The translations under genes and the position numbers were made by a program. Shown here piece by piece: positions 15,946 through 59,645 of a DNA stretch of 64,000 nt. The DNA is taken from contig JAWAAW010000001.1 of assembly GCA_038884975.1 (NCBI GenBank), forward strand, positions 18,476 to 82,475, in the 5' to 3' direction. Each line of letters starts with the position of its first letter. Position 1 is the first letter of the stretch. Below the pieces are notes generated by a model. It saw only the letters and a list, made by a program, of their open reading frames with translations. It did no database searches and was not told the origin of the DNA. Source of the stretch: Candidatus Woesearchaeota archaeon. Lineage in GTDB: Archaea; Nanobdellota; Nanobdellia; Woesearchaeales; ARS49.

Positions 15946-15955
15946 GAGGTGACTT

Positions 15956-17173: not shown

Positions 17174-17857
17174 TTATTTCTTTCTTGCGGGCGCTGCAGC
17201 TGGCTTTGCTGTCTTTGCAGTCTTTGTTATCCTAGACAACTCTGCAACAGAACCAGTCAGCTCAGGAAGGACTTTCTGGAAGACCTTTTCCATTGCCTTT
17301 ATTTCAGTGCCCACATCAAGAAGGTTCTTGTCATATTCTGAAATCTTGCTCACGATTGCCTTGTGCAGGTTGTCAAGATCAGATTTCATATCTGCCAAGG
17401 ACTGGTCAAGCTTGTCAAGCCTGGATGTTGTTGCTTCCTTCCACTCATTAATCTTGCCAATCTCCTTCATAAACTCATTCCATTTTTCCTCAACAACCGC
17501 CTCCGCAATTTCCTCAAAGCCCTTTGGAGTCTCAGCCGCGCCCTTCGGAGCGGTCTCTGCTGCAGGAAACTCTCCGACACCAGCACTCGGCGCTTCTGGC
17601 ATTGGCTCCGCACCGCCCTTCATCTCTGCCTGAGCCATGGCATCATAAATCTGCTGGGGCTGATAGCCTTGCCTTTGTAAGGTCTGGATTATTTGGTTAT
17701 TAGTCAATCCCTGCTGCCGCATTGCCAAGACCTGGTCTGTCGGAACTTCAGGAGGCATTGGTCCTGGCACAGGCATTCCCATAGGCACGGGATAACCCGC
17801 AACAGGCGCAGGAGCCTCTGCTGCGGGCTTTTTCTTGAAAATGTCCAGCAATCCCAT
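17174..17857 (-). CDS. Soluble coiled-coil protein with Pro-rich N-terminus (FlaC-like coiled coil?)
   Basis: N-terminus MGLLDIFKKK, a P-rich linker, a small helical module LAMRQQGLTNNQIIQTLQRQGYQPQQIYDAM, then a heptad-rich C-terminus (LDKLDQSLADMKSDLDNLHKAI...). No TM segment. Confidence 0.5.
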   Translation of the reverse strand: MGLLDIFKKKPAAEAPAPVAGYPVPMGMPVPGPMPPEVPTDQVLAMRQQGLTNNQIIQTLQRQGYQPQQIYDAMAQAEMKGGAEPMPEAPSAGVGEFPAAETAPKGAAETPKGFEEIAEAVVEEKWNEFMKEIGKINEWKEATTSRLDKLDQSLADMKSDLDNLHKAIVSKISEYDKNLLDVGTEIKAMEKVFQKVLPELTGSVAELSRITKTAKTAKPAAAPARKK

Positions 17858-17897: not shown

Positions 17898-18395
17898 TTA
17901 AATGTTTTGGTCGCCCGGCTTACTAGCAAGCTTTTCCTCAACAACCTCGCGGGCAATCTTTTCAGCATAGTCAGCAGTCACGAACTTCACAGGGTCCCAC
18001 AGCTCAATATAGCGCTTCATCACATCCATGTCACTTTTTCTTGCAGTAAGCCTCAACTCCTTGATGATTGTTATCACCCTGTCCTCAACCGCCTCAAGCT
18101 TGTGCCTGAGCTCGTCAATTTCCTCATTTGACAACTTTATCTCGCTTAATGTTTTTTTATGGTTGTTTAACATGTTTTGCTCAATGAAAAGAAGCTTTCT
18201 GCGCAGTTCGTTAAATCGCTCCTCATTGACCCTTATGCGCGAGGCAAGAGAATTAATCTGTTCAGCAAGACCAGTGACTTCTGGGCTTGGTCCTGGCGCT
18301 GGCTTTGTGCCACCAAAAAGCCTTTTTTTTGCAGGAGGGGTAGGCATTGCGCCAAATGCGTACTGGTCAGTGAAAGGCACAGCTTCATCAGCCAT
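17898..18395 (-). CDS. Soluble coiled-coil protein
   Basis: Heptad-rich (INSLASRIRVNEERFNELRRKLLFIEQN...EIDELRHKLEAVEDRV). No TM segment. Upstream of 17174..17857 on the same strand. Confidence 0.5.
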   Translation of the reverse strand: MADEAVPFTDQYAFGAMPTPPAKKRLFGGTKPAPGPSPEVTGLAEQINSLASRIRVNEERFNELRRKLLFIEQNMLNNHKKTLSEIKLSNEEIDELRHKLEAVEDRVITIIKELRLTARKSDMDVMKRYIELWDPVKFVTADYAEKIAREVVEEKLASKPGDQNI

Positions 18396-18538
18396 ACTTG
18401 AATGAAAAATGAGGATATACTTTAACTTTGTGGTGCTCTTGCCCAGTGGTCATTTATATTATAAAATATATATTTTCAGATTTCATATGTCAAGAAAACA
18501 CAAAATATATAAAATAATATGTTTGCACTGCGCCAAGG
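18396..18538. promoter_or_regulatory. AT-rich divergent promoter region between the coiled-coil operon and the RHH-ATPase operon
   Basis: TATA-like tracts tttatattataaaatatatatt and aaaatatataaaataat. The latter ends ~20-25 nt before the RHH ATG at 18539, consistent with a short-leader or leaderless archaeal transcript. Confidence 0.35.
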
Positions 18539-18682
18539 ATGAAAAAACCAATTTCGGCAACAATAGAGGAAGACCTCATTGCCTGGATTGACAAAAAGGT
18601 TGCAAAAGAGAGAAAAAGATTTCGAAACAAGTCGCACCTCATAGAAGTCGCACTTGAAAAACTGCGCGAGGAGGAAGACTGA
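18539..18682 (+). CDS. Ribbon-helix-helix (CopG/Arc/MetJ-type) protein, 47 aa, absent from the ORF track
   Basis: Translation MKKPISATIEEDLIAWIDKKVAKERKRFRNKSHLIEVALEKLREEED fits the strand-helix-helix pattern (xxISxxIEEDL ... RNKSHLIEVALEKL). Its TGA overlaps the ATG of the ATPase gene (TGATG). Confidence 0.7.
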   Translation: MKKPISATIEEDLIAWIDKKVAKERKRFRNKSHLIEVALEKLREEED

Positions 18683-20955
18683 TGGCAGCGAAATGCGGGG
18701 TAAGCGAAGTCATCAAGGAAGGAGAGGAAATCACTATCAGGATAGACTGCGAATCATGCCCATACTTCCCATCACTTGAAGACGACCCCCGAGTCATGGC
18801 AATGGTGATTGACACCCTTGCAGAAGCAGGAACAGCCACAAAAATCGTTCTTGTACAAAAGCGTGACTACGAGTACGACTACAACCAGACTGCAATGCTC
18901 ATAGAGATTGCAAAACTTTTCAAACAATTAAGCAAGGAAAGGCTTTCTGCAGGAATACTCGCAAACCCCCTGACCAGAAGATTTGTCGAAGCAAAATATA
19001 CCGAACTGCAAAACATAATCCACCGTTCTCTGAAATCCGACCCCCTTGGCGCCTATGTGGAACTGGTGCGAATAGCCCGCCGGGAACGAACCCAGCTAGA
19101 GCAAGGCGCCATACCCCGAGAAGGTGTACCCTGCATCCAAACTTTCTTGGGCTTGGTCGAGACCATCGTCAGCCGAATGGAAAAAACACGGCTGATAACT
19201 TTGGCCAAGCCCGCCCTGGCGGGTTACACCCTTGGAGACAGAGAGATTTACAGGCGATTCTTCTCCCCCCTCGTAAAGCCTGACTTCATGTATACCAAGC
19301 TTCAGGCAAGCTACCCTGCAGAAGGAGAGGAAATCGAAAGCTACGAGGTTGGCGAGAATGAAGTAACAATATTCTCAATACCACAAACAGTCCAGTACCT
19401 TTACCACCTCTCGCCGCCAGAATTCAAGCTCAACGAGGAAAAATACGAGCTCCTTGACGCGGCAAGAAAAATACTTGCAGAACACAAACCAAAACGCTCC
19501 GAATTCGTTGACCCTGAAAGAATGAGGCAAGTCTTCACAAACGTCGGAATGGATCTTCTTGAAGAACTTGCAGGATACAGGAACATAAGGCTCAGAGAAA
19601 AAGAACTTGAGGAACTCACAAAAATACTTGTGAAGTACACTGTCGGCTTCGGGCTTGTCGAGAACATTCTTGAAGACGAAAAAGTGCAGGACATCACAAT
19701 CAATAGCCCAATGGGAAGAACCCCTATTTTCATTGTCCACGCAGAATACGGGGACTGCATGACAAACATAATGCCCACAGTCACAGAAGCAGAAAGCTGG
19801 GCATCAAAGCTAAGAATGATTTCAGGAAGGCCATTGGACGAAGCAAACCCCATCCTTGACACAGAGCTTGTCCTCCCAACTGCAAGGGCAAGAGTTGCCG
19901 CAATCACTGCCCCACTGAATCCAACAGGACTCGCTTATGCATTGAGAAGACACAGGGACAAGCCATGGACTCTGCCCTTATTCATCAAAACAAAAATGAT
20001 GACCCCTCTTGCTGCAGGAATCATCAGCTTCCTTGTTGACGGCTCAAGAACAATACTAGTGGCAGGAACAAGGAGCGCAGGAAAAACATCTGTGCTCGGC
20101 AGCATAATGACAGAAATAATGAGAAAAGGCCGCATAGTCACAATTGAAGACACCCTTGAACTACCTGTTGACGCATTAAGAAAACTCAATTACAACATAC
20201 AAAGCATGAAAGTGGCAAGCGCGCTCACAAGAGGAACAACAGAAGTCAGCGCTGACGAGGGCATAAGAACAACCCTGCGCCTTGGCGATTCTTCCCTAAT
20301 AGTCGGAGAAGTCAGGAGTGTTGAAGCAAAAGCACTATATGAAGCAATGCGTGTCGGCGCACTTGCCAATGTGGTGGCAGGAACAATACACGGAGACAGC
20401 CCTTACGGCGTATTTGACAGGGTCGTGAATGATTTAGGAGTGCCAAAAACATCATTCAAGGCAACAGACATAATCATTGTTGCAAATCCCGTGCGTTCGC
20501 CTGACGGACTTCACAGGTTCAGGCGAATCACCCAAATAACAGAAGTAAGGAAGAAATGGGAAGAAGACCCCCTTACAGAAGGAGGTTTTGTTGATCTCAT
20601 GAAGTACGAAAGCAAAGACGACATGCTCCAAGCAAGCCGCGACCTGCTAGCAGGCGACAGCGACATAATAAAGGCAATTGCTGGCTCTGTAAGAGAATGG
20701 GCAGGCAACTGGGAAGCAGTCTGGGACAACATACTCCTAAGGGCAAACATCAAGCAGGAGCTTGTAAGCACTGCAGACAAGCTAAAAAGACCTGAACTGC
20801 TTGAGGCAAATTTCAGCGTGCTAGCAAATGATGAATTCCACCGCATAAGCGAAAGAATAAGAGAGGAAGTTGGAGCACTTGACAGCAAGAAAATCTTTGC
20901 GGAATGGTGCGAATGGCTCAAGCGCACAATCAAGAAGCCAATGGTTCTCGAATGA
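18682..20955 (+). CDS. Type II/IV secretion-family ATPase (FlaI/ArlI/PilB-like), 757 aa with long N-terminal extension
   Basis: Walker A AGTRSAGKTS, Asp box TIEDTLEL, Walker B LIVGEVR and His box GTIHGDSP. Confidence 0.85.
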   Translation: MAAKCGVSEVIKEGEEITIRIDCESCPYFPSLEDDPRVMAMVIDTLAEAGTATKIVLVQKRDYEYDYNQTAMLIEIAKLFKQLSKERLSAGILANPLTRRFVEAKYTELQNIIHRSLKSDPLGAYVELVRIARRERTQLEQGAIPREGVPCIQTFLGLVETIVSRMEKTRLITLAKPALAGYTLGDREIYRRFFSPLVKPDFMYTKLQASYPAEGEEIESYEVGENEVTIFSIPQTVQYLYHLSPPEFKLNEEKYELLDAARKILAEHKPKRSEFVDPERMRQVFTNVGMDLLEELAGYRNIRLREKELEELTKILVKYTVGFGLVENILEDEKVQDITINSPMGRTPIFIVHAEYGDCMTNIMPTVTEAESWASKLRMISGRPLDEANPILDTELVLPTARARVAAITAPLNPTGLAYALRRHRDKPWTLPLFIKTKMMTPLAAGIISFLVDGSRTILVAGTRSAGKTSVLGSIMTEIMRKGRIVTIEDTLELPVDALRKLNYNIQSMKVASALTRGTTEVSADEGIRTTLRLGDSSLIVGEVRSVEAKALYEAMRVGALANVVAGTIHGDSPYGVFDRVVNDLGVPKTSFKATDIIIVANPVRSPDGLHRFRRITQITEVRKKWEEDPLTEGGFVDLMKYESKDDMLQASRDLLAGDSDIIKAIAGSVREWAGNWEAVWDNILLRANIKQELVSTADKLKRPELLEANFSVLANDEFHRISERIREEVGALDSKKIFAEWCEWLKRTIKKPMVLE

Positions 20956-23105
20956 GCAACAACAAACTTCCAGCGGACCTAGTACAAAAATACAAGCAGA
21001 AACTACAAAGCCAGCTGGACCTCTCAACTGCAGAACCAATTCCTGTAGTAAGCAGGGAGTACAAGACATTCAAGCAGGAATCAATGCCGGGTCACATGAG
21101 CGTCTACGAAAAGGGATGCAACTTTGCAGGCAGACTTCTTAAAATCAGAGTTGACCCAAAAAGGGCGCAAGAACTGCAAGAATCAATTGACATCGCCCAC
21201 CTGAACATAACCCCTTCAGGAGTTATTGCCTTCAGCGTCGTCTTCCCCCTCGCGTATATAATATTTGGTTGCCTGCTCAGTCTTGCAATCGCAACATCAT
21301 TGTTTTTCACACTATTCTTCCTCGTATCCGGAATCACCCTCATGATTGTATTTGGAAAATACCCAATGTTCCTGGCAAACAACTGGCGCATGAAAGCAAG
21401 CAACCAAATGGTGCTCTGCGTGTTCTACGTTGTCACGTACATGCGCCACACAAGCAACCTCGAGCTTGCAATAGAATTCGCATCAGAACACCTCACCCCG
21501 CCATTGGCGCTTGACCTGAAAAAAATATTGTGGGATGTTGAAACCCAAAAGTATGAAAGCGTCAAAGAAAGCCTTGAAATGTATCTTGAAACGTGGAGGA
21601 AATGGAACAATGAATTTGTTGAGGCATTCCACCTAATAGTGAGTTCGCTTTACGAAACATCAGAAGAAAGAAGGCTCGCTCTTCTTGACAAGTCGCTTGA
21701 CGTCATACTTGAGGAAACGTACGAGAGAATGCTGCATTATGCACAAAACCTCAAGGGACCAATCACAATGATTCACATGCTCGGAGTAATACTACCAATC
21801 CTCGGGCTAGTTATACTGCCGCTCGTGGTAAGCTTTATGAGCAATGTTAAATGGTACCACATTGCAACCCTTTATAACATAATACTGCCTGTTGTCGTGT
21901 ATTTGCTTGGAAAGAACGTTCTCAGCCGGCGTCCCACAGGATATGGAGACACAGACATCGCAGAACTCAATCCCGCGCTCAAGAAATACCGAAACATAGT
22001 AATAAGGCTTGGCAATACAGAACTGCAAATAAACCCCATCTTCATCTGCGCAATCATCGGAGGCCTGTTTTTACTCCTCGCCCTTATTCCAGTAATACTC
22101 CACACAATACAACCAGACCTAAGCTATGACATTTCATTACCTTTTGACTGGAAACTGCTTGAATACCGCCAAAACACTGAAACAGGCGAAATAATAGGTC
22201 CTTTCGGAATGGGCGCATCACTCCTAAGCCTTGCATTCCCCCTTGCCCTCGCATTCGGAATCGGCCTTTATTTCAAGATGCGGTCGCAGAACGTGATAAA
22301 GATAAGGGAACAGACAAAAAAACTTGAAGACGAGTTCGCAAGCGCGCTCTTCCAACTCGGAAACAGGCTCGGCGACGGCCTGCCTGCAGAGATTGCATTT
22401 GCAAAGGTAGCAGAAGTAATGCCTGACACCGTAAGCGGGCACTTTTTTGAGGTCGTTGCCACAAACATCATGAAGCTTGGAATGGGAGTCAAAGAAGCCT
22501 TATTCAATCCCAGAACAGGCGCGCTCGTGTACTTCCCAAGCAACGTAATCCAAAGCTCAATGAAAGTGCTGGTGGAAAGCATCAAGAAAGGACCTGCAAT
22601 AGCTGCGCAGGCACTTCTCAACGTGGCAAGATACATCAAAGAAATCCACAAAGTAAACGAACGCCTAAAGGACCTTATGGCAGACGTCATTTCAGACATG
22701 AAGTCACAAATAAGCTTTTTGACGCCGGCAATAGCAGGGATAGTAATAGCAATAACAAGCATGATAACCTTCATCCTCGGCTCGCTCACATCAAACATCC
22801 AAAACCTCGGCGCAACAGAACTCGCAGGCAAGATGAGCGACATTGCAGGAATGTTCGGAATGGGAGTCCCAACATACTACTTCCAACTCGTTGTGGGGGT
22901 TTATGTGTTCGAAATAGTATTCATCCTCACAATAATGGCAAATGGAATTGAGAACGGAGCTGACAAACTGCAGGAAAAATATAACCTGGGAGCAAACCTC
23001 ATCAAGAGCACAATGCTTTACTGCATGCTCAGCTTCATAATGATGATAATATTCAACATGATTGCCTCACGCATAGTTGGCGTTGCAGGAGTCATGGCTG
23101 GATAA
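20952..23105 (+). CDS. FlaJ/ArlJ/TadC-like polytopic platform protein (two T2SS-F-like helical domains)
   Basis: Start set at the ATG 20952 (ATGA overlap with the ATPase stop). Two cytoplasmic helical modules (ELAIEFASEHLTPPLALDLKKILWDVE... and EDEFASALFQLGNRLGDGLPAEIAFAKVAE...) are separated by TM blocks. Confidence 0.75.
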   Translation: MSNNKLPADLVQKYKQKLQSQLDLSTAEPIPVVSREYKTFKQESMPGHMSVYEKGCNFAGRLLKIRVDPKRAQELQESIDIAHLNITPSGVIAFSVVFPLAYIIFGCLLSLAIATSLFFTLFFLVSGITLMIVFGKYPMFLANNWRMKASNQMVLCVFYVVTYMRHTSNLELAIEFASEHLTPPLALDLKKILWDVETQKYESVKESLEMYLETWRKWNNEFVEAFHLIVSSLYETSEERRLALLDKSLDVILEETYERMLHYAQNLKGPITMIHMLGVILPILGLVILPLVVSFMSNVKWYHIATLYNIILPVVVYLLGKNVLSRRPTGYGDTDIAELNPALKKYRNIVIRLGNTELQINPIFICAIIGGLFLLLALIPVILHTIQPDLSYDISLPFDWKLLEYRQNTETGEIIGPFGMGASLLSLAFPLALAFGIGLYFKMRSQNVIKIREQTKKLEDEFASALFQLGNRLGDGLPAEIAFAKVAEVMPDTVSGHFFEVVATNIMKLGMGVKEALFNPRTGALVYFPSNVIQSSMKVLVESIKKGPAIAAQALLNVARYIKEIHKVNERLKDLMADVISDMKSQISFLTPAIAGIVIAITSMITFILGSLTSNIQNLGATELAGKMSDIAGMFGMGVPTYYFQLVVGVYVFEIVFILTIMANGIENGADKLQEKYNLGANLIKSTMLYCMLSFIMMIIFNMIASRIVGVAGVMAG

Positions 23106-50721: not shown

Positions 50722-51579
50722 TTATGTTGCAGCACTCCAAGATTCAGGTGCATAAAGAGCAAAAATAATGTCACTCATTGAGCCATAGGGGTTAATTACG
50801 GGATTCTTCGCTGTGCAAACAAGATAGTCAGGATTTGAAGAACTCCTGACAGCAGAAAATGCAGTTATTGTTTTCAGACAATCATCAACAGAATAAGCAT
50901 CAGTGCATTCATAAAATGTCCTTACTGCCGCCTTAAGCGAATCATAAACCTCAAGCCTTGCACTGACAGGAACAGTAAATGAAGGCTTGAAAGAATACTC
51001 ACCAATTGCAGCTTTTTTCAATACCGCAGTTGTTATTGTTATAAACCACCGTTCGTATTTGCGCAGTTCAGGAGGAGGCTGCAACAAGACTCTGGCTGAC
51101 TTAATAGCAGTCCCAGTAACTGAATTATTCTGGACAAAAATCACGTAATTGCCAGCAGGCAGCATTGCGGACTGGTATTTGCTTGTGAAAACATCCATTT
51201 GCTTGTTGAATGCGGCATTTAGTGCCTCATAAGGTTGCACAGAATCCAAACAAAGCATTCCTCTTGCAGACCAAGCATAAATTTTTTTGTTAGCCTCTTC
51301 AATAATGCCACACTTCGCCTCAACCACAGCCCCTGAAGCGGCAACTTCATCAAGCGCGCGATAAACAGACATTTTTGCAGACTGATCAACGTAAAGCAAG
51401 GCATTCTCGCCAGACTGGTACGCATTCAACAGAGCCACCTGAGAACCGCCCAGCGGAGTCTCAAATGACTCAACCTTTGACGCGAGCTGTATGTACATAT
51501 AAATAACAAGTATCAGCGTTACAAGCACCATCATTGCTGAATAATCAATCCCTTTCTTGTTTTTCAGCATCTGAATCAT
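50722..51579 (-). CDS. Secreted/anchored protein with prepilin-like N-terminus, unknown function
   Basis: MIQMLKNKKG|IDYSAMMVLVTLILVIYMY. ATGA overlap with the upstream gene. Last gene of the operon. Confidence 0.55.
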   Translation of the reverse strand: MIQMLKNKKGIDYSAMMVLVTLILVIYMYIQLASKVESFETPLGGSQVALLNAYQSGENALLYVDQSAKMSVYRALDEVAASGAVVEAKCGIIEEANKKIYAWSARGMLCLDSVQPYEALNAAFNKQMDVFTSKYQSAMLPAGNYVIFVQNNSVTGTAIKSARVLLQPPPELRKYERWFITITTAVLKKAAIGEYSFKPSFTVPVSARLEVYDSLKAAVRTFYECTDAYSVDDCLKTITAFSAVRSSSNPDYLVCTAKNPVINPYGSMSDIIFALYAPESWSAAT

Positions 51580-51968
51580 TGGCGCTTCACCTCAACCCTG
51601 TATTCTGAAACTGCGCCATCATAACTGGGAAGAACGGTTTTCATCACAGCACTTGGCAGGTCAATCTTGGAACCGCACAAAAATTTGTCATTCCGATAAA
51701 CTGCAATCTGTGCCTGTGGCCCATAAGCATCACGTGTGACCTGGTCAACCCTTGAGCAGTCATTGCGTTCCAAATCATCAGCGACAGCAGCAAGCAAAAG
51801 CCGCAGCTGGTCTGAGGTGTCCAAATCGATTATTTCTGCCTTGATGTCAAATGCCTGCTTTTTAATGAATGCGCTGGTTGTTAACGTAAAGCCCACCAGC
51901 ACCAACGCTATTATTCCAACCGCTGCGAGCAAAGTAAATGCCCTTCCTGCAAGACCGCGCTTGTTCAT
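51576..51968 (-). CDS. Prepilin-like protein
   Basis: MNKRG|LAGRAFTLLAAVGIIALVLVGF. ATGA overlaps at both ends. Confidence 0.55.
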   Translation of the reverse strand: MNKRGLAGRAFTLLAAVGIIALVLVGFTLTTSAFIKKQAFDIKAEIIDLDTSDQLRLLLAAVADDLERNDCSRVDQVTRDAYGPQAQIAVYRNDKFLCGSKIDLPSAVMKTVLPSYDGAVSEYRVEVKRQ

Positions 51969-52453
51969 CTAAAACCTCCCGGTGGCTTTGGAGCATAAAC
52001 CTGGTCTATTTCCAGCAAGGCAAACTTCTGGCTGTCCTGAATCCAGACAGGCCTTGTCTCAATGAAGTTCTGATACCTAACTGGCGACAATGGTTTCGCT
52101 TCCTTGTATAGCCCTTCATTGAAATACGCTTCATCATGGTCAAGCGTAAGCTTCATCGCAAGTCTTCTTGGAGTGCCCGCAGTCGTAAACGCATCCACAA
52201 TCATTTTCTTGTCCCATAAGCCCTTGCTTGCAAGCACACCCGAATAAATCCTGTGAGTGAGGGGGGATTGCCATGCAGTTTTTGTCAGGATACGCTCTGT
52301 AAAAATCACGTTCTCAAGCCCTGCGGTGTCTGTCTTTTGCGAAAACACACTTGAAGGTGCCTGAACAATAAAGAAAATAACTGCAACAGTAAGCGCAATG
52401 TAAAATATCCAAAAAACCACTGCCTCACTAATTTGAGCCCTGCGATCAAGCAT
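51965..52453 (-). CDS. Prepilin-like/anchored protein
   Basis: ATG at 52453 gives MLDRRAQISEAVVFWIFYIALTVAVIFFIV. The track start at 52462 is a GTG. Overlaps the upstream gene by 8 nt. Confidence 0.5.
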   Translation of the reverse strand: MLDRRAQISEAVVFWIFYIALTVAVIFFIVQAPSSVFSQKTDTAGLENVIFTERILTKTAWQSPLTHRIYSGVLASKGLWDKKMIVDAFTTAGTPRRLAMKLTLDHDEAYFNEGLYKEAKPLSPVRYQNFIETRPVWIQDSQKFALLEIDQVYAPKPPGGFR

Positions 52454-53381
52454 TGGAAACACCCCTCATTATTGCAGTGGCAATCATCATCTGATGACTT
52501 GGGTCTACAAACAAGCTTTGGTCTGAAGCGCTGATTTCAAGCAACACACCAGCAGTTCCTTTTGAAATGACAGAATCATCAGCTGAAGTCTGGTCAGGAT
52601 TAACAGGAATAACTGCCGCACCTGTTACTTCAAAACCCATCCTGCCAAACTCTGTTATTAGCGCATTCACAACCTCGCAGCCAAGGCGCTGGCTTTGGCC
52701 AAGAATCTCAGGAACATTGTCTCCATTTACGAAAGCCTTAATAATTAATTCGCCAGGACTGGAATTGCTCAGTTTTATTGCAAGCAAATTATTTCCCTGC
52801 TTTGGGCCCAGCATTCCACTTGCCATTCGAGCAATCACCTGTTCTGCTTCAGCATTGGAAGCGTGCGCAGACACTACCGAAACCCCGCCAGCGAGCTTTT
52901 CATCACTGCACGTAAGATATTCGCGATAATAATCATAATTGCGCTCATTCAGGTTGCGGACAAGCAAGTTTTTGCCCTGCTTGACAAAGACAGGAATTAC
53001 TTTCTTGTCGCTAAATGACAGGAATGATTCTTCAGTGCTTATGCCCGGATCTGGAGTGAAATAAAATAAGCCGGGAGATGGATCATCAATCTTTGCAAGA
53101 GCACTGACGCTATTCCTTGAAAAGTTGTATAAGTAATTGATGCTGAAGTTCTCACCAACCTGAGGTATATAAATCAAGAAAAGATTTCCCGGCTGAGGCA
53201 TTGCAGGAATTGCATCCTGTATGAGCGCAAGGTCTGTTGCGAGAAAGCGCTTTTCAAAAGTGGTTTTTTCACCAACACCATGAATGTACGACAACATTGT
53301 TATCAGAATCATTACGGCAACCATGGTTTCAAACAAAGGATGCAATACAAAACCTATCCAAGCGCCTTTTTTTGATTTCAT
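52446..53381 (-). CDS. Prepilin-like/anchored 311-aa protein
   Basis: ATG at 53381 (ATGA overlap) gives MKSKKG|AWIGFVLHPLFETMVAVMILITML. The track start is a TTG. Confidence 0.55.
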   Translation of the reverse strand: MKSKKGAWIGFVLHPLFETMVAVMILITMLSYIHGVGEKTTFEKRFLATDLALIQDAIPAMPQPGNLFLIYIPQVGENFSINYLYNFSRNSVSALAKIDDPSPGLFYFTPDPGISTEESFLSFSDKKVIPVFVKQGKNLLVRNLNERNYDYYREYLTCSDEKLAGGVSVVSAHASNAEAEQVIARMASGMLGPKQGNNLLAIKLSNSSPGELIIKAFVNGDNVPEILGQSQRLGCEVVNALITEFGRMGFEVTGAAVIPVNPDQTSADDSVISKGTAGVLLEISASDQSLFVDPSHQMMIATAIMRGVSNA

Positions 53382-53833
53382 GAGCAAGCAGCACCAATAT
53401 GCACTGAATTATCCATCTTGCGGCATATCCTGACAGGCGTGCCTTGAGCAACAGCAACAACTTCAGGCTCAGGATTTATGGCACACATTCCTTTTTCGCA
53501 ATTGCTCTCAATCTTTTGCAGTATCACGCACGTCTTGCTTTCTGAATCGCAAATGCAGGGCTTGCCCTTGCAATAATCATTAGTGTTTCCTGCACCATAA
53601 AACTCAAGAACATAACCACCGCCAGTAGTAATAACGTCAATTGCCTGGTTTGGCTGCAATGCTGCAATTTCCTTGACAACCCTTTCGCGGTCCCTCACCA
53701 CAAGGGTTGTTGGTTTCTTAGATACTTCCCAAACGCCGTAAAATATTGAAAACAAAATAAGGGCAATCATGACAGAAAAAAGAAGTATTCCTGCATGAAT
53801 CACCGGCACTTCAACCTGTCCCTTTTTGTCCAT
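53378..53833 (-). CDS. Prepilin-like Cys-rich protein
   Basis: MDKKGQ|VEVPVIHAGILLFSVMIALILF. The mature part has 8 Cys (CKGKPCICD...CEKGMC). Confidence 0.55.
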   Translation of the reverse strand: MDKKGQVEVPVIHAGILLFSVMIALILFSIFYGVWEVSKKPTTLVVRDRERVVKEIAALQPNQAIDVITTGGGYVLEFYGAGNTNDYCKGKPCICDSESKTCVILQKIESNCEKGMCAINPEPEVVAVAQGTPVRICRKMDNSVHIGAACS

Positions 53834-53873
53834 ACTTTAAAGCCAACAAACAAGGGATATAAATGTTTCTATC

Positions 53874-54179
53874 TCAGCTGACTTCGCAGCAAGACATTCC
53901 TTTTGGCGTGCAGTCAGCCCAAGTGCCTGGAAGTGTGATTGAGTTTGGAACTTCAGAACAACTATTGGCGCACTTTCTTGTGTGGAGCGCAAAAAGGGTT
54001 TCACAAACGTCTGCCTTTGCCTGCTGTTCTGCAGTTTCAGAAATGTTAACATACTTTTTGGAACCTTTCTGCAGCTGCGTGGTTATCAAGACAATAAGAA
54101 CCACCAGCACAACAAGCCCAAGAACAGCAAGAATAATTGTGTTGATTGGCAAACCCTGACCGCGCTTCATAACATTCAT
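53874..54179 (-). CDS. Small type IV pilin-like protein (paralog C)
   Basis: M(NVM)KRGQG|LPINTIILAVLGLVVLVVLIVL. C-terminus contains a CC pair. Confidence 0.7.
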   Translation of the reverse strand: MNVMKRGQGLPINTIILAVLGLVVLVVLIVLITTQLQKGSKKYVNISETAEQQAKADVCETLFALHTRKCANSCSEVPNSITLPGTWADCTPKGMSCCEVS

Positions 54180-54206
54180 TTTTTGCTGCTCCCTATTTAA
54201 TCTTTT

Positions 54207-54851
54207 CTAGTGTATTGCCATCATTATGATGTTGCTGGCCTGTGCGGGATCAACACCGCCCGGCTGAATGTTGCCAACTTGCACGCCACCAAGGCTTCCA
54301 TCACTACCAAGTCTTGAGCTGTCATCCTGCACAAAATCATGATAAACGCCTTGACGGACCTGATTAAAGACAAAAGGCCTGCTCTTTGAATAATCAGAGC
54401 CCCACACAATGCGCAAGTCATTGCCAACAGCCCTCCGCCAGTCCTCATCAATAAAAATATGTGTTTCAAGAACGCCATTCATTGAACGCTCAACCATAAA
54501 ACCCTGCAAAATTCCATCATTTGGATTGAGAATTGGAGTGACTTCCATCATCAGCTTTCCATTTTCATCAAAGTACTTGGTGCCAAAGAAATTTCCCTTG
54601 TAAATCCCCTCGTAAGCAAAAGCAGTAAAGCCCATACCCGGAATCAAAACCTGCTCATTAACATCATTGTATTTCCCTTTGCCACGCGTTGCTTCTTTCA
54701 CATCAACAGAAACACCACCAGGAACAGGCGAAAGCCAGTCAGCAGGATTGTTGCTGTACACGTGCCTTTTTGGCATCATGACCCAACGAATTCCGAGAAT
54801 AATCAGGATTACAATAAGCAATGCCAAGACAACAGCTAAGAGTTTTTTCAT
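54207..54851 (-). CDS. N-terminally anchored/secreted protein, unknown function
   Basis: ATG at 54851 (ATGA overlap with the stop of the 1032-aa gene) gives MKKLLAVVLALLIVILIILGI. Confidence 0.55.
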   Translation of the reverse strand: MKKLLAVVLALLIVILIILGIRWVMMPKRHVYSNNPADWLSPVPGGVSVDVKEATRGKGKYNDVNEQVLIPGMGFTAFAYEGIYKGNFFGTKYFDENGKLMMEVTPILNPNDGILQGFMVERSMNGVLETHIFIDEDWRRAVGNDLRIVWGSDYSKSRPFVFNQVRQGVYHDFVQDDSSRLGSDGSLGGVQVGNIQPGGVDPAQASNIIMMAIH

Positions 54852-57800
54852 GGCCATTTCTCCCAAGCCTCCAATACAACATCAGTCGCTGCAGATATAA
54901 GCCCGGTCGAGAGCAACGCGACAGGGGTTGCCAGTCCGGAAGTAAAGCCAATCATAACTGCATCAACCGCCAGCGAAGCCATTGTTACAACATTCCTAGC
55001 CCATTCCAGCCGAGGAAAGTTATCATAGCAATAAGTTCCGTCAAGAATGTTCGCCTCTATCTCAAGGCAGTCTGGCTTGAAATACTCGTCCTTAAGGAGA
55101 GAATTCAGCATGTTTTTCTTGGCTTCAGAACTCATTGATTCACCCCAAATATTGCCGCCAGCCAAATAGCTATAATAAAGAGTGCCTCCAAAATTCATCA
55201 CGTCCTTCACAAATCCTGCTTGGTCGCACTGCTTGACAGCATGGGAGGCATCATACCATTCTTTCATCCGTTCACCTGCCATAATTGTAGAAGGCCCTCC
55301 CTGCACCTGCCGGGTTCCAGCAAGCCAGTGTATCAATCCATCCCTGCCCTTCACAAGACCGCCGACAGGAGAAACAACATCACTGAAGAAATTGTCATCG
55401 TATTTTTCCATTTCCTCGTCAAGGTATTGTGCGAATGCGTACTTATCATACGAATCGCCGTACACATTTAATTTTGTCATCGCATCAAGAGCATTCCATT
55501 GCGCACGCCAATTCTCAAACTTCACTGCCTTGACAACATCCTCCCACTGCTTCTTGAATTTTGCCTCAAGAACAGCACCTGACAAAGGCTTCACTGAACC
55601 CGGCTCAACATTAATTGTTCCAGTCGGATAAGTGAACTTGTGCAATTGTGGATTCTTGTAACAAGTGCACTTGCGCTTATAAACAACAAGGTCTGCCTTG
55701 CACGGGCTAACATAATACATCCTTTGTCCATACTTGTCCTTGTTGTGCACGAAAAAATCATACGATGCGTTGTTAAGGTCAAGGGGCAACGTTGGACCAA
55801 GCAGTGTTGGCTGGTTGATTGCGAGGGAATTTGCACCAACAGGCCTGAATTTCTCATTAACAGAATCTTGTGCCTCAATAAACCAACCAATTAACAGCAT
55901 TGCAGGATAACTGTGCTGAGCAACCCAGACTGGCAAATTGACCAGTGTCTTGATTGCGGTTCCACCAATTACAAGCCCGCCAGCTGACAGTTTTACAGGT
56001 GATTGTGCTGTAATGAATGCAAAAAGCTCACTCGGCTTCCACACTTTTGGGAAGTTCTTTGTTGAGAACCCGCCAAGAGTTCCTGAGAGGAGAATATCAA
56101 GCATTTCGCGACTGCCACCCAAAGCCTTCTGAACACCTGTCGGATTTATCTTGCCTATAGCATTAAGACTCTTGATTGCTGACTCTGCATTCTTTGTGAA
56201 CAGGTCAATATCCAGTGTTCCCTCTTTTGTAATCATCCCTGAAAGAAGGTCCTCATAAGCGCGCTTTCTGATAATATTTGCTGCCATTTCTTTGCTCAAA
56301 TCTCGCTCTATAAGCTCCTTAAACCCGCCCTTAACCTCTGCGCCAGCAAATGACATTGTTTTCTTTGCGCCAGCTTCTATCGCTTCCTCAGGCAATTCCT
56401 TTCCTTCAATAATGAACTTTTTGATAGATTCCTTATATGCCTGCAAAGCCTTCGCGCGGATTTCTGCTTCAGAAAGCCCCACCTGGCCAGGACCCACCAA
56501 CTCGGTTATCGGTGCCTTTTCCTTCCAAGCCTTGACAAACACATCAGGAACATCATTAATCCTTTTTTCAATAACATCATCAATCTGGCTTGCAAGACCT
56601 TTTTCCATTGCTTTTTGCCACGCTCTTGGTCCAGACCTGGTTCCGATGGATTTCAAAATGACATCTGTAATTTCTTCTGCCACATCATCAGTCATTCCTT
56701 GCACTCCCATCATTGCCTCTTTCATCACCACTGCCTTCATCGTGTTTTCAACGCCGTTCCTGGCAAGCCTGTTAATAATCACTTTCTCTACTTCAGTAAT
56801 TCCACGCTTTGCCAACGCCTCGCCAGTCTGTTTTGCAATTTCTTTTGCCTCTTTTTCAGCAACCTTCTTGACAGCCTTTGCACCCTTTCCAATACCACCA
56901 AACATATTAAAAAAGCCAGAAGCAGTAACTGTTGCGATTGTCCAGAGATTGAACATGTCGCTCCATTCCTTATGCCAGTACTCAGCAGCCTCAGGAGGGA
57001 AGGACTCATAATAAACAAGCCATCGTGGGTCTCCATATGCTGAAAGGAATAGTTTTGCCATTCCGCCACCAACATCCTGCGGAAGCTCAAAACCCTTCAC
57101 AGAGCACGAAAAAGTGTCAGTGGCATCAATATCACAATCATTAATGCTGATGTACTGATGAAAATTGCCGTGCCTGAAATCAATGCAGAAAACCATATCC
57201 TGATTCCTGAAAATTTTTCCTTTATTGAAACTTGTTTGTATCTCAACAGCATTCTGGAATGCCATGTTTGTTTTTGAAAGCAATTCATCAATAACTTTTT
57301 CCTGTCCCGGAAATTTTGCCTTGTTATTTTTCATATAAGAAACCAGCTCGTCCTCATCAATTGAAAAATCATCACCCCGCCTTTTGTAATCAACATAAGC
57401 GCAACGCAAATCCTGCTTAAGGAACGGGTCTGACTTTATCTTGCAGTCTATTATTTGCTTTGAAAGCTCATAAATTACGTCTTCTTTTTTTGCAGGCGCT
57501 ACAACCCGAACAGGCGCAATTCCAGAGCACTTAACAACTGAAGAATCATACTGTTTTGGCTCTGTTGTTGTCATTCCCGTAACAACAGCCCAAGCCTTGC
57601 CTGTCGGAGTCTGCGCCATTTGTTGCGGCACTGCCTCAAGCGGAGGGGGGCAGACTTTAGGGTCATTCGGCCTGAACTCGCCCAAGGCAACACTATTCAG
57701 AGCACAACGCAAAGCATTCACCGAATTCATCACCTTGCGCTCTTCTTCAGTGAGCGGCGGGCCGGTATAAGGAACAAAAACCTTTTCGGCAGGCGCCCTT

Positions 57801-57946
57801 CCAAGAACACCTCTCTCGCCAAAAATTTTTTCTTTGGCAAACTGATAGCCCAGGTTCCCCAGACCATAAACAACAAGAAGTATAACTATTGCTCCGAGCA
57901 CTATGCTGATGAATGCCATTGCCTTTTTGTGCATCATCTCAGCCAT
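54848..57946 (-). CDS. Giant (about 1030 aa) multi-pass membrane protein, unknown function
   Basis: N-terminus (MAEM)MHKKAMAFISIVLGAIVILLVVYGL. Further hydrophobic segments near aa 330, aa 640-690 and the C-terminus. Contains a ~300-aa K/E/A-rich helical region. An alternative start at 57937 gives an ATGA overlap with the upstream smORF. Confidence 0.7.
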   Translation of the reverse strand: MAEMMHKKAMAFISIVLGAIVILLVVYGLGNLGYQFAKEKIFGERGVLGRAPAEKVFVPYTGPPLTEEERKVMNSVNALRCALNSVALGEFRPNDPKVCPPPLEAVPQQMAQTPTGKAWAVVTGMTTTEPKQYDSSVVKCSGIAPVRVVAPAKKEDVIYELSKQIIDCKIKSDPFLKQDLRCAYVDYKRRGDDFSIDEDELVSYMKNNKAKFPGQEKVIDELLSKTNMAFQNAVEIQTSFNKGKIFRNQDMVFCIDFRHGNFHQYISINDCDIDATDTFSCSVKGFELPQDVGGGMAKLFLSAYGDPRWLVYYESFPPEAAEYWHKEWSDMFNLWTIATVTASGFFNMFGGIGKGAKAVKKVAEKEAKEIAKQTGEALAKRGITEVEKVIINRLARNGVENTMKAVVMKEAMMGVQGMTDDVAEEITDVILKSIGTRSGPRAWQKAMEKGLASQIDDVIEKRINDVPDVFVKAWKEKAPITELVGPGQVGLSEAEIRAKALQAYKESIKKFIIEGKELPEEAIEAGAKKTMSFAGAEVKGGFKELIERDLSKEMAANIIRKRAYEDLLSGMITKEGTLDIDLFTKNAESAIKSLNAIGKINPTGVQKALGGSREMLDILLSGTLGGFSTKNFPKVWKPSELFAFITAQSPVKLSAGGLVIGGTAIKTLVNLPVWVAQHSYPAMLLIGWFIEAQDSVNEKFRPVGANSLAINQPTLLGPTLPLDLNNASYDFFVHNKDKYGQRMYYVSPCKADLVVYKRKCTCYKNPQLHKFTYPTGTINVEPGSVKPLSGAVLEAKFKKQWEDVVKAVKFENWRAQWNALDAMTKLNVYGDSYDKYAFAQYLDEEMEKYDDNFFSDVVSPVGGLVKGRDGLIHWLAGTRQVQGGPSTIMAGERMKEWYDASHAVKQCDQAGFVKDVMNFGGTLYYSYLAGGNIWGESMSSEAKKNMLNSLLKDEYFKPDCLEIEANILDGTYCYDNFPRLEWARNVVTMASLAVDAVMIGFTSGLATPVALLSTGLISAATDVVLEAWEKWP

Positions 57947-58098
57947 TCAAGCCAGGCAGCCTGCCTTTGCCCTGCCTTGGCAATCAGCCATATCGCGAAC
58001 AAGAGGACAAACAAGCCAATAATCAAGGCAATAACGTAAGCCCATCCTGGAATGTCCCCTTTCTTATTCCTCAACATTGAATAAAGTGTTCGTATCAT
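57934..58098 (-). CDS. Unannotated small prepilin-like ORF (54 aa)
   Basis: Hand translation MIRTLYSMLRNKKG|DIPGWAYVIALIIGLFVLLFAIWLIAKAGQRQAAWLEWLR. Starts 3 nt after the stop of 58102..59067, and its TGA overlaps an ATG of the giant gene. Confidence 0.5.
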   Translation of the reverse strand: MIRTLYSMLRNKKGDIPGWAYVIALIIGLFVLLFAIWLIAKAGQRQAAWLEWLR

Positions 58099-58101
58099 TT
58101 T

Positions 58102-59067: not shown

Positions 59068-59183
59068 GCAACACCACCAGGAACAATCCTGCCGATTATT
59101 TTAAGGATAATATAAAAAAGTACAACAAGAAGCACAAGAACAACTAAAGTAGTAACAACCAAACGGGACGCACCTCTTTTCAT
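59064..59183 (-). CDS. Unannotated small prepilin-like ORF (39 aa)
   Basis: Hand translation MKRG|ASRLVVTTLVVLVLLVVLFYIILKIIGRIVPGGVA. ATGA overlap with the downstream gene. Confidence 0.45.
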   Translation of the reverse strand: MKRGASRLVVTTLVVLVLLVVLFYIILKIIGRIVPGGVA

Positions 59184-59229
59184 ACCTTGTTCTCGAGAAT
59201 ACTATTTATATAAGGCTTTCGGTGAAGAA

Positions 59230-59511: not shown

Positions 59512-59645
59512 GTTACTGATGACATTATTGGTATTACGATGTGCTTGTTAAGCACGAACAATGTTGTTATTAAGTAAATGAGTAACAACACCAGAAAGAT
59601 TAGGATAATAATCTTTCCAGGCGTTGCTTCTGTGACGAAGGGCAT
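59508..59645 (-). CDS. Unannotated small TM ORF (45 aa)
   Basis: Hand translation MPFVTEATPGKIIILIFLVLLLIYLITTLFVLNKHIVIPIMSSVT. TAATG overlap with pilin A and ATGA overlap with pilin B. Confidence 0.4.
   Translation of the reverse strand: MPFVTEATPGKIIILIFLVLLLIYLITTLFVLNKHIVIPIMSSVT

What the first reader, a model, noticed from the sequence alone, without database searches (positions are those of the whole stretch)
18539..23105. RHH / oversized FlaI-like ATPase / oversized FlaJ-like platform module, with the RHH gene missing from the ORF track
A 47-aa ribbon-helix-helix ORF (18539..18682) ends in TGATG, which is also the start of a 757-aa secretion-superfamily ATPase. The ATPase has Walker A AGTRSAGKTS, Asp box TIEDTLEL, Walker B LIVGEVR and His box GTIHGDSP. 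It in turn overlaps (ATGA) a ~717-aa FlaJ/TadC-like protein. From memory, both core proteins seem considerably longer than typical archaellum FlaI/FlaJ. The extra length is an N-terminal region of the ATPase beginning MAAKCGVSEVIKEGEEITIRIDCESCPYFPSLEDDP. No archaellin, FlaF/G/H or prepilin peptidase gene is adjacent, so this looks like a pilus-type motor rather than an archaellum-type one. It is the only candidate engine in the window for the pilin operon at 50.7-61.2 kb. A DNA-binding RHH translationally coupled to the motor ATPase would be an unusual autoregulatory arrangement.
Basis: partly seen in the sequence, partly recalled or inferred. Interest (0 to 1): 0.6.

Follow-up and report, generated by a model that had tools for sequence, protein, structure and literature searches.

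The report
DPANN pilus motor operon with RHH
This is the only pilus-assembly motor (ATPase plus membrane platform) of a tiny Woesearchaeota archaeon; nearly every sampled relative keeps the same oversized form, and about a fifth of its order add a small DNA-binding-type gene welded to the front, so it is an uncharacterised lineage-specific variant of a known machine.

Summary
A 47-aa RHH ORF (18539..18682) overlaps by TGATG a 757-aa secretion-superfamily ATPase (18682..20955). That ATPase overlaps by ATGA a 717-aa polytopic membrane protein (20952..23105).

The genome is an 838-kb Woesearchaeota (DPANN) assembly. It has this one T4F ATPase, one prepilin peptidase on another contig, and no archaellin. 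The motor is therefore pilus-type and the only one in the genome.

The extra size is the lineage's normal form, not a local oddity. The first ~190 residues are an extra N-terminal domain relative to afGspE (PDB 2OAP). That domain matches nothing in Pfam or in PDB sequences. It occurs once per genome in 247 of 251 genomes sampled across the phylum.

The platform lies directly downstream in 30 of 30 loci. It is so divergent that Pfam T2SSF misses it and databases call it hypothetical.

The RHH is a real gene under purifying selection. Its orthologue sits only directly upstream of the ATPase, in 17 of 61 and about 35 of 251 sampled genomes, all in the same order. It comes with its own conserved 19-nt TATA block.

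Autoregulation by the RHH is plausible but untested. This is a new variant of a known kind, of moderate interest.

The parts
17174..17857 (-). 227-aa soluble coiled-coil protein; second gene of the divergent pair; probable accessory component (inferred)
   Evidence: A homologue lies in the same position in 23 of 30 related loci by tblastn and in the gene calls of L036 and L037. It has no curated family hit.
17898..18395 (-). 165-aa soluble coiled-coil protein, transcribed divergently from the RHH/ATPase operon across a 143-bp spacer; probable accessory component (inferred)
   Evidence: A homologue lies directly upstream on the opposite strand in 26 of 30 related loci, whether or not the RHH is present. 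It has no curated family hit.
18428..18450 (+). Conserved non-coding element TTGTGGTGC...CAGTGGT (consensus roughly TTGYGTRAC-N8-AGTRGT); promoter-proximal or 5'-leader element of the ATPase operon
   Evidence: By eye it is present in RHH-bearing and RHH-lacking loci of several genera. In RHH-lacking loci it sits just before an AAAGAGGTG Shine-Dalgarno-like site and the ATPase ATG.
18498..18516 (+). 19-nt block ACACAAAATATATAAAATA; BRE/TATA-type promoter of the RHH gene and candidate operator
   Evidence: It lies 22 nt upstream of the RHH ATG here. It is found 22-27 nt upstream of the RHH start in 10 of 14 RHH-bearing loci and 211 nt upstream in an eleventh. It is in 0 of 16 RHH-lacking loci. 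It is unique in the window, with 0 expected by chance.
18539..18682 (+). 47-aa ribbon-helix-helix (CopG/Arc-MetJ type) protein; first gene of the operon
   Evidence: Pfam RHH_1 scores 19.3 bits against a cut-off of 20.5, and 8 of 13 orthologues hit it. It aligns end to end with CopG 1B01/2CPG at E 0.6. Orthologues are annotated RHH. Variable sites by codon position within the genus are 11/8/39. It is adjacent to the ATPase wherever the orthologue exists.
18682..20955 (+). 757-aa type IV filament assembly ATPase. Residues 1-~190 (18682..19251) are a lineage-specific extra N-terminal domain. Walker A is at 20062..20091, Asp box at 20140..20163, Walker B at 20296..20316, and His box at 20380..20403.
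   Evidence: Evidence comes from Pfam T2SSE; PDB sequence hits to afGspE, CpaF and FlaI; an AF2 model at pLDDT 77 whose best fold match is afGspE with TMt 0.79; and the N-terminal profile, which hits only this family. It is one copy per genome in 247 of 251 genomes.
20952..23105 (+). 717-aa polytopic platform protein (divergent FlaJ/TadC/GspF-type), coupled to the ATPase by an ATGA overlap
   Evidence: It lies downstream of the ATPase in 30 of 30 loci. T2SSF hits are weak: E 3.9e-4 genome-wise, and 26 of 48 homologues at E <= 0.1, best 6.5e-5. The AF2 model has pLDDT 79 and pTM 0.75, with two cytoplasmic helical bundles and about 9 TM segments. The local fold match to the EpsF cytoplasmic domain 2VMB has probability 0.99 and TMt 0.71.
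50722..59962 (-). Cluster of prepilin-like genes; probable substrates of the motor. It lies outside the finding and was not analysed in depth here.
   Evidence: Several products start with a short basic leader followed by a hydrophobic helix. Examples are MKKAQGLPITVIIIAALGLIVLFVLL and MDKKAQGLPITTIIIAILGLVVLVILF. There is no other T4F ATPase in the genome.

Best explanation
The locus is the single type IV filament (pilus-type) assembly core of a Woesearchaeota (DPANN) archaeon. It is read as one operon: RHH, then ATPase, then platform.

Shown:
- The 757-aa protein is a secretion-superfamily ATPase with all four catalytic boxes.
- Its fold is afGspE-like, with about 190 extra N-terminal residues. 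These form a small beta/alpha module carrying conserved Cys5, Cys23 and Cys26, followed by a four-helix bundle.
- That extra domain is found only in this protein family.
- The family is single-copy and nearly universal in the phylum.
- The 717-aa partner always follows it and has a GspF-like cytoplasmic bundle.
- The RHH gene is real. In a minority of the order it is always stop/start-coupled to the ATPase, and it comes with its own conserved TATA block 22-27 nt from its start.

Inferred:
- The ATPase forms a hexamer on the cytoplasmic bundles of the platform. ATP hydrolysis then drives prepilins from the membrane into a filament used to attach to a host or partner cell. The prepilins would be cut by the lone A24 peptidase and are probably encoded at 50.7-60 kb.
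- The extra N-terminal domain docks lineage-specific partners. The two coiled-coil proteins encoded divergently next door are the obvious candidates.
- The RHH dimer binds the shared 143-bp promoter region and feeds back on its own operon, as the 45-aa CopG does on copG-repB. Translational coupling would tie repressor output to motor output.

My odds: pilus-type T4F core 0.9; RHH a real co-expressed protein 0.95; RHH a DNA-binding autoregulator about 0.5.
For: - One motor per genome: one T2SSE ATPase, one A24 peptidase and no archaellin. The other weak hit is a PilT-like ATPase with a KH domain.
- ATPase motifs and family match.
- Ranking of solved relatives: by sequence, afGspE E 5.9e-27, CpaF 5.6e-21, FlaI 2.8e-15. 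By fold, afGspE has TMt 0.79 over 547 columns.
- Conservation: a match at E <= 1e-20 in 61 of 61 genomes of the order, near-full-length at 54-90% identity in most. The N-terminal domain is in 247 of 251 genomes of the phylum sample.
- Specificity of the N-terminal domain: among 1.84 billion representative proteins, the 150 best of 340 hits all match at or near the N-terminus of the protein.
- Platform: adjacent in 30 of 30 loci, with weak T2SSF hits and an EpsF-like local fold.
- RHH: purifying selection and conserved coupling through TGATG, TAAATG or ATGA junctions. Strong orthologues occur only next to the ATPase. It has a CopG-like profile and public RHH annotation.
- The RHH-linked promoter block is in 11 of 14 RHH-bearing loci and 0 of 16 RHH-lacking loci.
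Against: - There is no experimental or transcript evidence.
- No operator repeat could be defined in the AT-rich spacer.
- The RHH Pfam score is just below the curated cut-off.
- Most relatives do without the RHH, so it is not needed for the machine.
- The platform fails the curated T2SSF threshold. It has no global fold match in PDB, and hhalign found no internal repeat.
- The link to the 50.7-60 kb pilin cluster rests only on the lack of an alternative motor.
- Filament formation by Woesearchaeota has not been shown in the papers I read.
Confidence: 0.7

Rival explanations
1. The RHH does not autoregulate this operon. It could bind the ATPase (for example its extra N-terminal domain) as an adaptor or inhibitor. 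It could instead be a DNA-binding regulator whose main targets lie elsewhere, such as the divergent coiled-coil genes or the pilin cluster.
For: - Tight stop/start coupling would favour fixed protein stoichiometry.
- No operator repeats were found, and the 19-nt block is unique in the window.
- The promoter region is shared with the divergent coiled-coil pair.
Against: - The protein is a minimal 47-aa RHH with no flexible tail. Its invariant N-terminal strand (K2, K3, S6, A7, T8) is typical of DNA-reading ribbons.
- It comes with its own conserved promoter block, as expected of a self-contained regulatory module.
- Small first-gene RHH autorepressors such as CopG are the established precedent.
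Confidence: 0.2
2. The ATPase-platform pair, with the coiled-coil proteins and the three neighbouring membrane paralogues, is not a conventional pilus assembler. It would be another T4F-derived envelope machine of DPANN archaea, for example for secretion, DNA or substrate uptake, or a bindosome-like structure.
For: - Near-universal single-copy conservation at 54-90% identity across an order, and inteins in some homologues, are what one expects of a core housekeeping-like function.
- The N-terminal domain is unique to the family.
- The platform is very divergent.
- The literature calls the subsystem identity of most Nanobdellati T4F ambiguous.
Against: - The genome carries a prepilin peptidase and many prepilin-like genes but no other motor.
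- 1990 Nanobdellati genomes are reported to carry system-1 (Epd-like) pilins.
- The ATPase core fold is that of filament-assembly ATPases.
Confidence: 0.15
3. It is an archaellum motor (ArlI/ArlJ). Woesearchaeota MAG studies often annotate such genes as flaI/flaJ.
For: JGI names several homologues 'flagellar protein FlaI'. A Woesearchaeota MAG paper lists flaI and flaJ as motility genes (PMC11606122). FlaI is among the fold matches.
Against: - The NCBIfam archaellum FlaI equivalog scores 117.9 bits against a cut-off of 550.
- There is no Arch_flagellin match in the genome even at E <= 1.
- afGspE and CpaF match better than FlaI.
- No ArlF, ArlG or ArlH gene is nearby.
Confidence: 0.03
4. The 47-aa ORF is a chance open frame and not a gene.
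For: It is short, and its Pfam score is below the curated cut-off.
Against: - Orthologues are 57-87% identical in 17 of 61 genomes across several families of the order.
- Third-codon-position variation dominates, at 11/8/39.
- Gene callers predict it, and public databases annotate it as RHH.
Confidence: 0.01

Closest known systems
afGspE, archaeal secretion ATPase of Archaeoglobus fulgidus (PDB 2OAP/2OAQ)
   Same: It is the best sequence match (E 5.9e-27) and the best fold match (E 3e-22, TMt 0.79, 547 aligned columns). The fold match covers most of afGspE's 503 residues.
   Different: The Woesearchaeota protein has about 190 extra N-terminal residues with no detectable relative outside its own family. 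Identity is only about 20%.
Archaeal T4F 'system 1' / Epd pilus of Methanococcus maripaludis (PMC13705601; PMC4858521 clade 1)
   Same: It is an adhesive, non-motility pilus. The literature assigns system-1-type pilins to about 1990 Nanobdellati genomes, and notes that the ATPase and platform are adjacent while pilins are scattered.
   Different: System 1 is defined by two platform genes, an 11-gene locus and a dedicated peptidase, EpdA. Here there is a single 717-aa platform gene and an unlinked A24 peptidase. I did not test whether the ATPase is orthologous to the Epd ATPase.
Bacterial Tad/Flp pilus motor CpaF(TadA)-TadB-TadC (PDB 8RKD, 9E24)
   Same: CpaF is the second-best solved relative of the ATPase core (E 5.6e-21). 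NCBIfam TadA is the top family hit at 118.9 bits. JGI names some platform homologues TadB.
   Different: The TadA score is far below the cut-off of 373. The platform here is one protein rather than TadB plus TadC. The system is archaeal, with a class III signal-peptide context and no secretin.
Archaellum ArlI/ArlJ (FlaI/FlaJ; PDB 4IHQ, 4II7)
   Same: It belongs to the same ATPase superfamily, has the same two-gene ATPase-platform core, and gives a fold match.
   Different: There is no archaellin. The FlaI equivalog test fails. The ATPase is about 240 aa longer than FlaI.
CopG of plasmid pMV158 (PDB 1B01, 2CPG), a 45-aa RHH autorepressor and first gene of the copG-repB operon
   Same: It has the same size and an RHH layout that aligns end to end. 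It likewise sits as the first gene directly ahead of the protein it would control.
   Different: Similarity is marginal (E 0.6). CopG controls plasmid replication. Neither of the two archaeal T4F surveys I searched mentions an RHH in its main text.

Membership tests
Secretion (GspE/VirB11/PilB) ATPase superfamily, Pfam T2SSE PF00437 | Score above the curated cut-off | tested here: met
   59.1 bits against a cut-off of 24.9, residues 361-601.
Secretion (GspE/VirB11/PilB) ATPase superfamily, Pfam T2SSE PF00437 | Walker A, Asp box, Walker B and His box all present and conserved | tested here: met
   They lie at residues 461-470, 487-494, 539-545 and 567-574. Their core residues are invariant or nearly invariant in 48 homologues.
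Secretion (GspE/VirB11/PilB) ATPase superfamily, Pfam T2SSE PF00437 | Two-domain NTD/CTD fold of the hexameric assembly ATPases | tested here: met
   The AF2 model matches afGspE, FlaI and CpaF at probability 1.00. The hexameric state itself was not tested.
Archaellum ATPase ArlI/FlaI (NCBIfam NF058587 equivalog) | Score above the equivalog cut-off | tested here: not met
   117.9 bits against a cut-off of 550.
Archaellum ATPase ArlI/FlaI (NCBIfam NF058587 equivalog) | Archaellin genes present in the genome | tested here: not met
   PF01917 gives no match at E <= 1 in a genome that is 99.95% complete.
TadA/CpaF family (TIGR03819) | Score above the curated cut-off | tested here: not met
   118.9 bits against a cut-off of 373.
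Platform proteins GspF/PilC/TadC/FlaJ (Pfam T2SSF PF00482) | T2SSF domain above the curated cut-off | tested here: not met
   14.6 bits by hmmscan and 19.7 bits genome-wise, against a cut-off of 25.2. 26 of 48 homologues hit at E <= 0.1, best 6.5e-5.
Platform proteins GspF/PilC/TadC/FlaJ (Pfam T2SSF PF00482) | Cytoplasmic helical bundle of GspF type, set between transmembrane helices and present twice | tested here: inconclusive
   There is a local Foldseek match to the EpsF cytoplasmic domain 2VMB (probability 0.99, TMt 0.71, E 1.0). The model shows two helical bundles and about 9 TM segments. There is no sequence-level repeat by hhalign and no PDB sequence hit.
Platform proteins GspF/PilC/TadC/FlaJ (Pfam T2SSF PF00482) | Conserved adjacency to the assembly ATPase | tested here: met
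   It is downstream of the ATPase in 30 of 30 loci, and here the two genes overlap by ATGA.
Ribbon-helix-helix, CopG family (Pfam RHH_1 PF01402) | Score above the curated cut-off | tested here: not met
   19.3 bits against a cut-off of 20.5. 8 of 13 orthologues hit below the threshold.
Ribbon-helix-helix, CopG family (Pfam RHH_1 PF01402) | Strand-helix-helix layout of about 45 aa, with a polar N-terminal strand and an N/G-x-S/T cap on helix 2 | tested here: inconclusive
   The pattern KKPISATIEEDL ... RNKSHLIEVALEKL fits. It aligns end to end with CopG at E 0.6, and other pipelines annotate orthologues as RHH.
Ribbon-helix-helix, CopG family (Pfam RHH_1 PF01402) | Sequence-specific DNA binding as a dimer | not testable with these tools
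   This needs EMSA or footprinting.
Archaeal T4F system 1 (Epd-like; PMC13705601) | Two separate platform genes | tested here: not met
   There is a single 717-aa platform gene here and in 30 of 30 relatives.
Archaeal T4F system 1 (Epd-like; PMC13705601) | ATPase in the clade-1 / system-1 branch of the archaeal ATPase tree | not tested

The most novel reading that the evidence does not exclude
The conserved block may be a distinct T4F subsystem not separated out by the current system 1-4 scheme. The block is two divergent coiled-coil genes, an optional RHH, a 750-aa ATPase with a family-specific and possibly metal-binding N-terminal domain, and a 715-aa single-gene platform. It would be a near-essential core organelle of GTDB Nanoarchaeota (Woesearchaeales, Pacearchaeales and relatives). 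Its motor would be tuned by a built-in RHH feedback loop in part of the Woesearchaeales.
Probability: 0.3. Interest if true: 0.65.

Novelty: new variant of a known kind. Interest (0 to 1): 0.42.

Why it matters
DPANN archaea live attached to other cells, and no Woesearchaeota culture or imaging was found in the papers I read. A single-copy motor kept in nearly every genome of 0.5-2 Mb is a strong candidate for their attachment organelle.

Three points are useful for annotation and for design of experiments:
- The FlaI/FlaJ labels in MAG studies are misleading here. These genes are not evidence of motility.
- The platform is systematically left as 'hypothetical', so profile-based censuses can under-count complete T4F cores.
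- The lineage-specific N-terminal ATPase domain, the neighbouring coiled-coil pair and the optional RHH give concrete handles for interaction and regulation studies of an otherwise inaccessible group.

None of this overturns current views. It refines a known machine.

Tried and rejected
- Archaellum reading: rejected.
- Second motor in the genome: the only other T2SSE-like hit (C11, E 4e-4) is a 470-aa PilT-like ATPase with a KH domain, of the MJ1533 type, which is not a secretion ATPase (family described in PMC4858521).
- Homology of the N-terminal 210 aa: a profile against PDB sequences gave only noise (best E 0.017, subtilisin prosegment). Pfam gave nothing for the window's copy and only scattered single hits for others. 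The all-protein HMM search gave only the same family.
- Platform: the profile against PDB sequences gave no hits. hhalign of the N-half against the C-half found no repeat. There is no global Foldseek hit.
- Regulon search: the 22-nt promoter block has no second copy in the window at up to 3 mismatches.
- Supplementary tables of PMC13705601 are not held, so its assignment for this genome could not be read.
- In-frame TGA codons flagged inside two ATPase orthologues are only the natural stop codons read through by the aligner.
- A tree against labelled arCOG clades was not built, because no named reference sequences could be fetched.
Full report
**What is in the sequence**

- A 47-aa ORF (18539..18682) ends in TGA, whose A is the first base of the ATG of a 757-aa ORF (18682..20955).
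- That ORF overlaps by ATGA the start, at 20952, of a 717-aa product ending at 23105.
Their core residues are invariant or nearly invariant in 48 homologues.
- Neighbours on the right are glycyl-tRNA synthetase, RFC large subunit and isoleucyl-tRNA synthetase.
- Neighbours on the left are two minus-strand coiled-coil genes, three small membrane paralogues, Translin, AspRS and GatCAB.

**Organism and genome inventory**

The window lies in an 838-kb, 17-contig assembly estimated at 99.95% complete. The identical sequence is in NCBI assembly GCA_038884635.1. The closest protein homologues that carry a source name are labelled Candidatus Woesearchaeota.

Genome-wide profile searches found the following.
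- One T2SSE ATPase above the curated cut-off, which is this one.
- One Peptidase_A24 prepilin peptidase, on contig C2.
- No archaellin, even at E <= 1.
- The only weak T2SSF signal inside the 717-aa ORF itself.
- A second weak T2SSE hit on C11. It is a 470-aa P-loop ATPase with a C-terminal KH motif. This is the MJ1533-type family that Makarova et al. say is never found in secretion contexts (PMC4858521).

So this is the only T4F motor of the whole genome, not just of the window.

**The ATPase**

Family scores are as follows.
- Pfam T2SSE scores 59 bits against a cut-off of 24.9.
- NCBIfam TadA (118.9 bits) and archaellum FlaI (117.9 bits) tie, far below their cut-offs of 373 and 550.
- Among solved structures the order by sequence is afGspE 2OAP (E 5.9e-27), CpaF (5.6e-21), FlaI (2.8e-15).

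An AlphaFold2 model built on 48 homologues has mean pLDDT 77. Its best fold match is afGspE, at E 3e-22 and TMt 0.79 over 547 columns of a 503-residue chain. FlaI and CpaF follow. The sequence alignment pairs query residues 301-637 with afGspE residues 110-428. Roughly the first 190 residues are therefore extra.

In the model these residues form two parts.
- A beta-hairpin/helix/beta-hairpin/helix module (residues 7-85). It carries invariant Cys5 and Cys26 and nearly invariant Cys23.
- Four long helices (residues 96-178).

A possible metal site formed by these cysteines is my conjecture only.

**How special is the extra domain?**

- A profile of residues 1-210 finds nothing credible in PDB sequences.
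- It finds nothing in Pfam.
- Against 1.84 billion representative proteins it finds only 340 proteins. In the 150 listed, the match sits at or near the N-terminus. These are fragments, ~750-aa proteins, or 1260-1780-aa forms; homologues of about 1250-1270 aa carry intein Pfam domains.
- In whole genomes it occurs once per genome in 247 of 251 genomes sampled evenly over the phylum. This sample includes orders other than the window's.
- The full-length protein gives a match at E <= 1e-20 in 61 of 61 genomes of the order, and in most of them the match is near-full-length at 54-90% identity.

The 'oversized' ATPase is thus the normal, single-copy, near-universal form of this lineage. This fits the general statement of Sivabalasarma & Albers (PMC13705601) that non-archaellum T4F ATPases carry subsystem-specific N-terminal or C-terminal extensions.

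**The platform**

- The 717-aa start is supported by 4115 homologues; those listed are mostly 710-730 aa.
- Nearly all are annotated 'hypothetical protein'. A few are called TadB.
- hmmscan gives T2SSF only 14.6 bits here. 26 of 48 homologues hit T2SSF at E <= 0.1, in the window's copy at residues 168-290.
- A profile against PDB sequences gives nothing.
- The AF2 model (pLDDT 79, pTM 0.75) is all-helical. It has about nine hydrophobic spans and two cytoplasmic helical bundles, each followed by a very long helix.
- Foldseek finds no global match. It does find a local match to the cytoplasmic domain of EpsF/GspF (2VMB; probability 0.99, TMt 0.71, rmsd 3.1 over 123 columns).
- hhalign did not detect the two-repeat relationship at sequence level.
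- The gene follows the ATPase in 30 of 30 related loci.

I accept it as a highly divergent FlaJ/TadC/GspF-type platform, on structure and context rather than on curated family thresholds.

**The RHH**

- Pfam RHH_1 scores 19.3 bits against a cut-off of 20.5. 8 of 13 orthologues give similar sub-threshold hits.
- The orthologue profile aligns end to end with the 45-aa repressor CopG, at E 0.6.
- Public pipelines annotate orthologues as RHH proteins, for example MBW2973385.1.
- Gene calls on the NCBI record include the 47-aa gene. It is therefore not an annotation gap.

The gene is under purifying selection. Within the genus, variable sites by codon position are 11/8/39 over 46 codons.

Its distribution is patchy.
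- In 61 genomes of the order, 17 have a strong orthologue, and every one lies directly upstream of the ATPase.
- In the 251-genome phylum sample, 35 have a strong hit (E <= 8e-19). All 35 are in the same order. Wherever the ATPase coordinates were listed, the hit is adjacent.
- Weaker hits elsewhere in these genomes are paralogous RHH genes.
- The stop/start junction is always tight: TGATG, TAAATG, TAAAATG or ATGA.
- RHH identity falls roughly in step with ATPase identity. This fits vertical descent with repeated loss, but I did not test it formally.

**Promoter region**

RHH-bearing loci share a 19-nt block, ACACAAAATATATAAAATA.
- It lies 22-27 nt upstream of the RHH start in 10 of 14 such loci.
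- In an eleventh locus it lies 211 nt upstream.
- It is absent from all 16 RHH-lacking loci.
- It is unique in the window.

The spacing fits an archaeal BRE/TATA promoter giving a leaderless or nearly leaderless mRNA. That reading is an inference from established promoter geometry.

RHH-lacking loci instead have a TATA-like box, a conserved element of the form TTGYGTRAC-N8-AGTAGT, an AAAGAGGTG Shine-Dalgarno-like site and then the ATPase ATG. The same element survives upstream in RHH-bearing loci, at 18428..18450 here.

In the window the ATPase ATG is preceded by GAGGAGG, which lies within the last RHH codons. The RHH therefore looks like a self-contained module, with its own promoter and gene, placed in front of an older promoter. 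No convincing operator repeats could be defined in this AT-rich DNA.

**Conserved neighbourhood**

- Homologues of the 165-aa coiled-coil protein lie divergently upstream in 26 of 30 loci.
- Homologues of the 227-aa coiled-coil protein lie there in 23 of 30 loci.
- Both are present regardless of the RHH.
- The Translin gene and the small membrane paralogues are also syntenic in a relative whose ATPase is 72% identical.

These are the natural candidates for partners of the extra ATPase domain. That is inference.

**Mechanism proposed**

- One promoter drives RHH, ATPase and platform.
- The overlapping stops and starts couple their translation.
- The ATPase hexamer sits on the platform's cytoplasmic bundles. 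It powers insertion of prepilins into a filament.
- The prepilins are processed by the lone A24 peptidase. The prepilin-like genes at 50.7-60 kb have the expected short basic leader plus hydrophobic helix.
- Where present, the RHH dimer binds the shared promoter region and damps the operon, as CopG does for copG-repB. The CopG comparison rests on established knowledge, and this step is untested here.

**Comparison with the literature**

- PMC13705601 (October 2026) reports T4F components in 2942 Nanobdellati genomes. It finds the ATPase and platform adjacent, pilins scattered, 1990 genomes with system-1 pilins, and mostly ambiguous subsystem identity.
- System 1 is defined there by two platform genes. 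Here there is one.
- Neither that paper nor Makarova et al. 2016 mentions an RHH or CopG regulator in its main text.
- MAG papers label such genes flaI and flaJ and treat them as motility genes (PMC11606122). For this genome that reading is not supported.

**Earlier notes of this scan**

Earlier notes describe the same family in other genomes and reach a similar reading. I treated them as leads only.

**Verdict**

- The pilus-not-archaellum reading and the sole-engine reading are supported.
- The RHH is real but optional, and its role is untested.
- This is a lineage-wide, uncharacterised variant of a known machine, of moderate interest.

Noticed in passing
homologues P0035, P0053, P0098, P0110; G029:C9 and G035:C36: Some orthologous ATPases are 1250-1340 aa. 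The protein homologues carry an intein (Pfam LAGLIDADG_3 and Intein_splicing). In the two genome copies the ATPase match breaks at about residues 488-513, around the Asp box, which fits an insert there. Inteins usually sit in highly conserved, important proteins.
   Followed up: partly
window 18428-18450, and the matching positions in L014-L032: A non-coding element of the form TTGYGTRAC-N8-AGTRGT is conserved between the divergent coiled-coil gene and the ATPase operon across several genera, with or without the RHH. It could be an initiator or 5'-leader element, or a binding site for another regulator.
   Followed up: partly
window 15379-17144: Three tandem paralogous small polytopic membrane proteins (188, 207 and 185-190 aa) lie beside the coiled-coil pair. 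A relative (L036) has four such genes in the same place, next to Translin. Their function is unknown, and they may or may not belong to the same machine.
   Followed up: partly
G000:C11:27063-28475 (L002 1153-2565): A 470-aa PilT-like P-loop ATPase with a C-terminal KH-type motif (IIGAGGKNIQ). It belongs to the archaea-specific MJ1533-like family and gives a weak T2SSE signal. It is not a secretion ATPase.
   Followed up: partly
L036 11556-12276: In a relative whose ATPase is 72% identical and which lacks the upstream RHH, a PIN-domain gene and an RHH_12 gene (a likely toxin-antitoxin pair) and a LAGLIDADG gene sit just downstream of the platform gene.
   Followed up: no
window 18662-18682: The acidic tail of the RHH (REEED) is encoded by GAGGAGGAAGAC. 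This doubles as a Shine-Dalgarno-like site 6-12 nt before the ATPase ATG, so part of the conservation of the tail may reflect translation signals rather than protein function.
   Followed up: no
window 53874-54179, 59230-59511, 59645-59962: Three small proteins (93-105 aa) share the N-terminus K-[AG]-Q-G-L-P-I followed by a hydrophobic helix, and have Cys-rich C-terminal parts. They look like the major-pilin candidates of the cluster.
   Followed up: no
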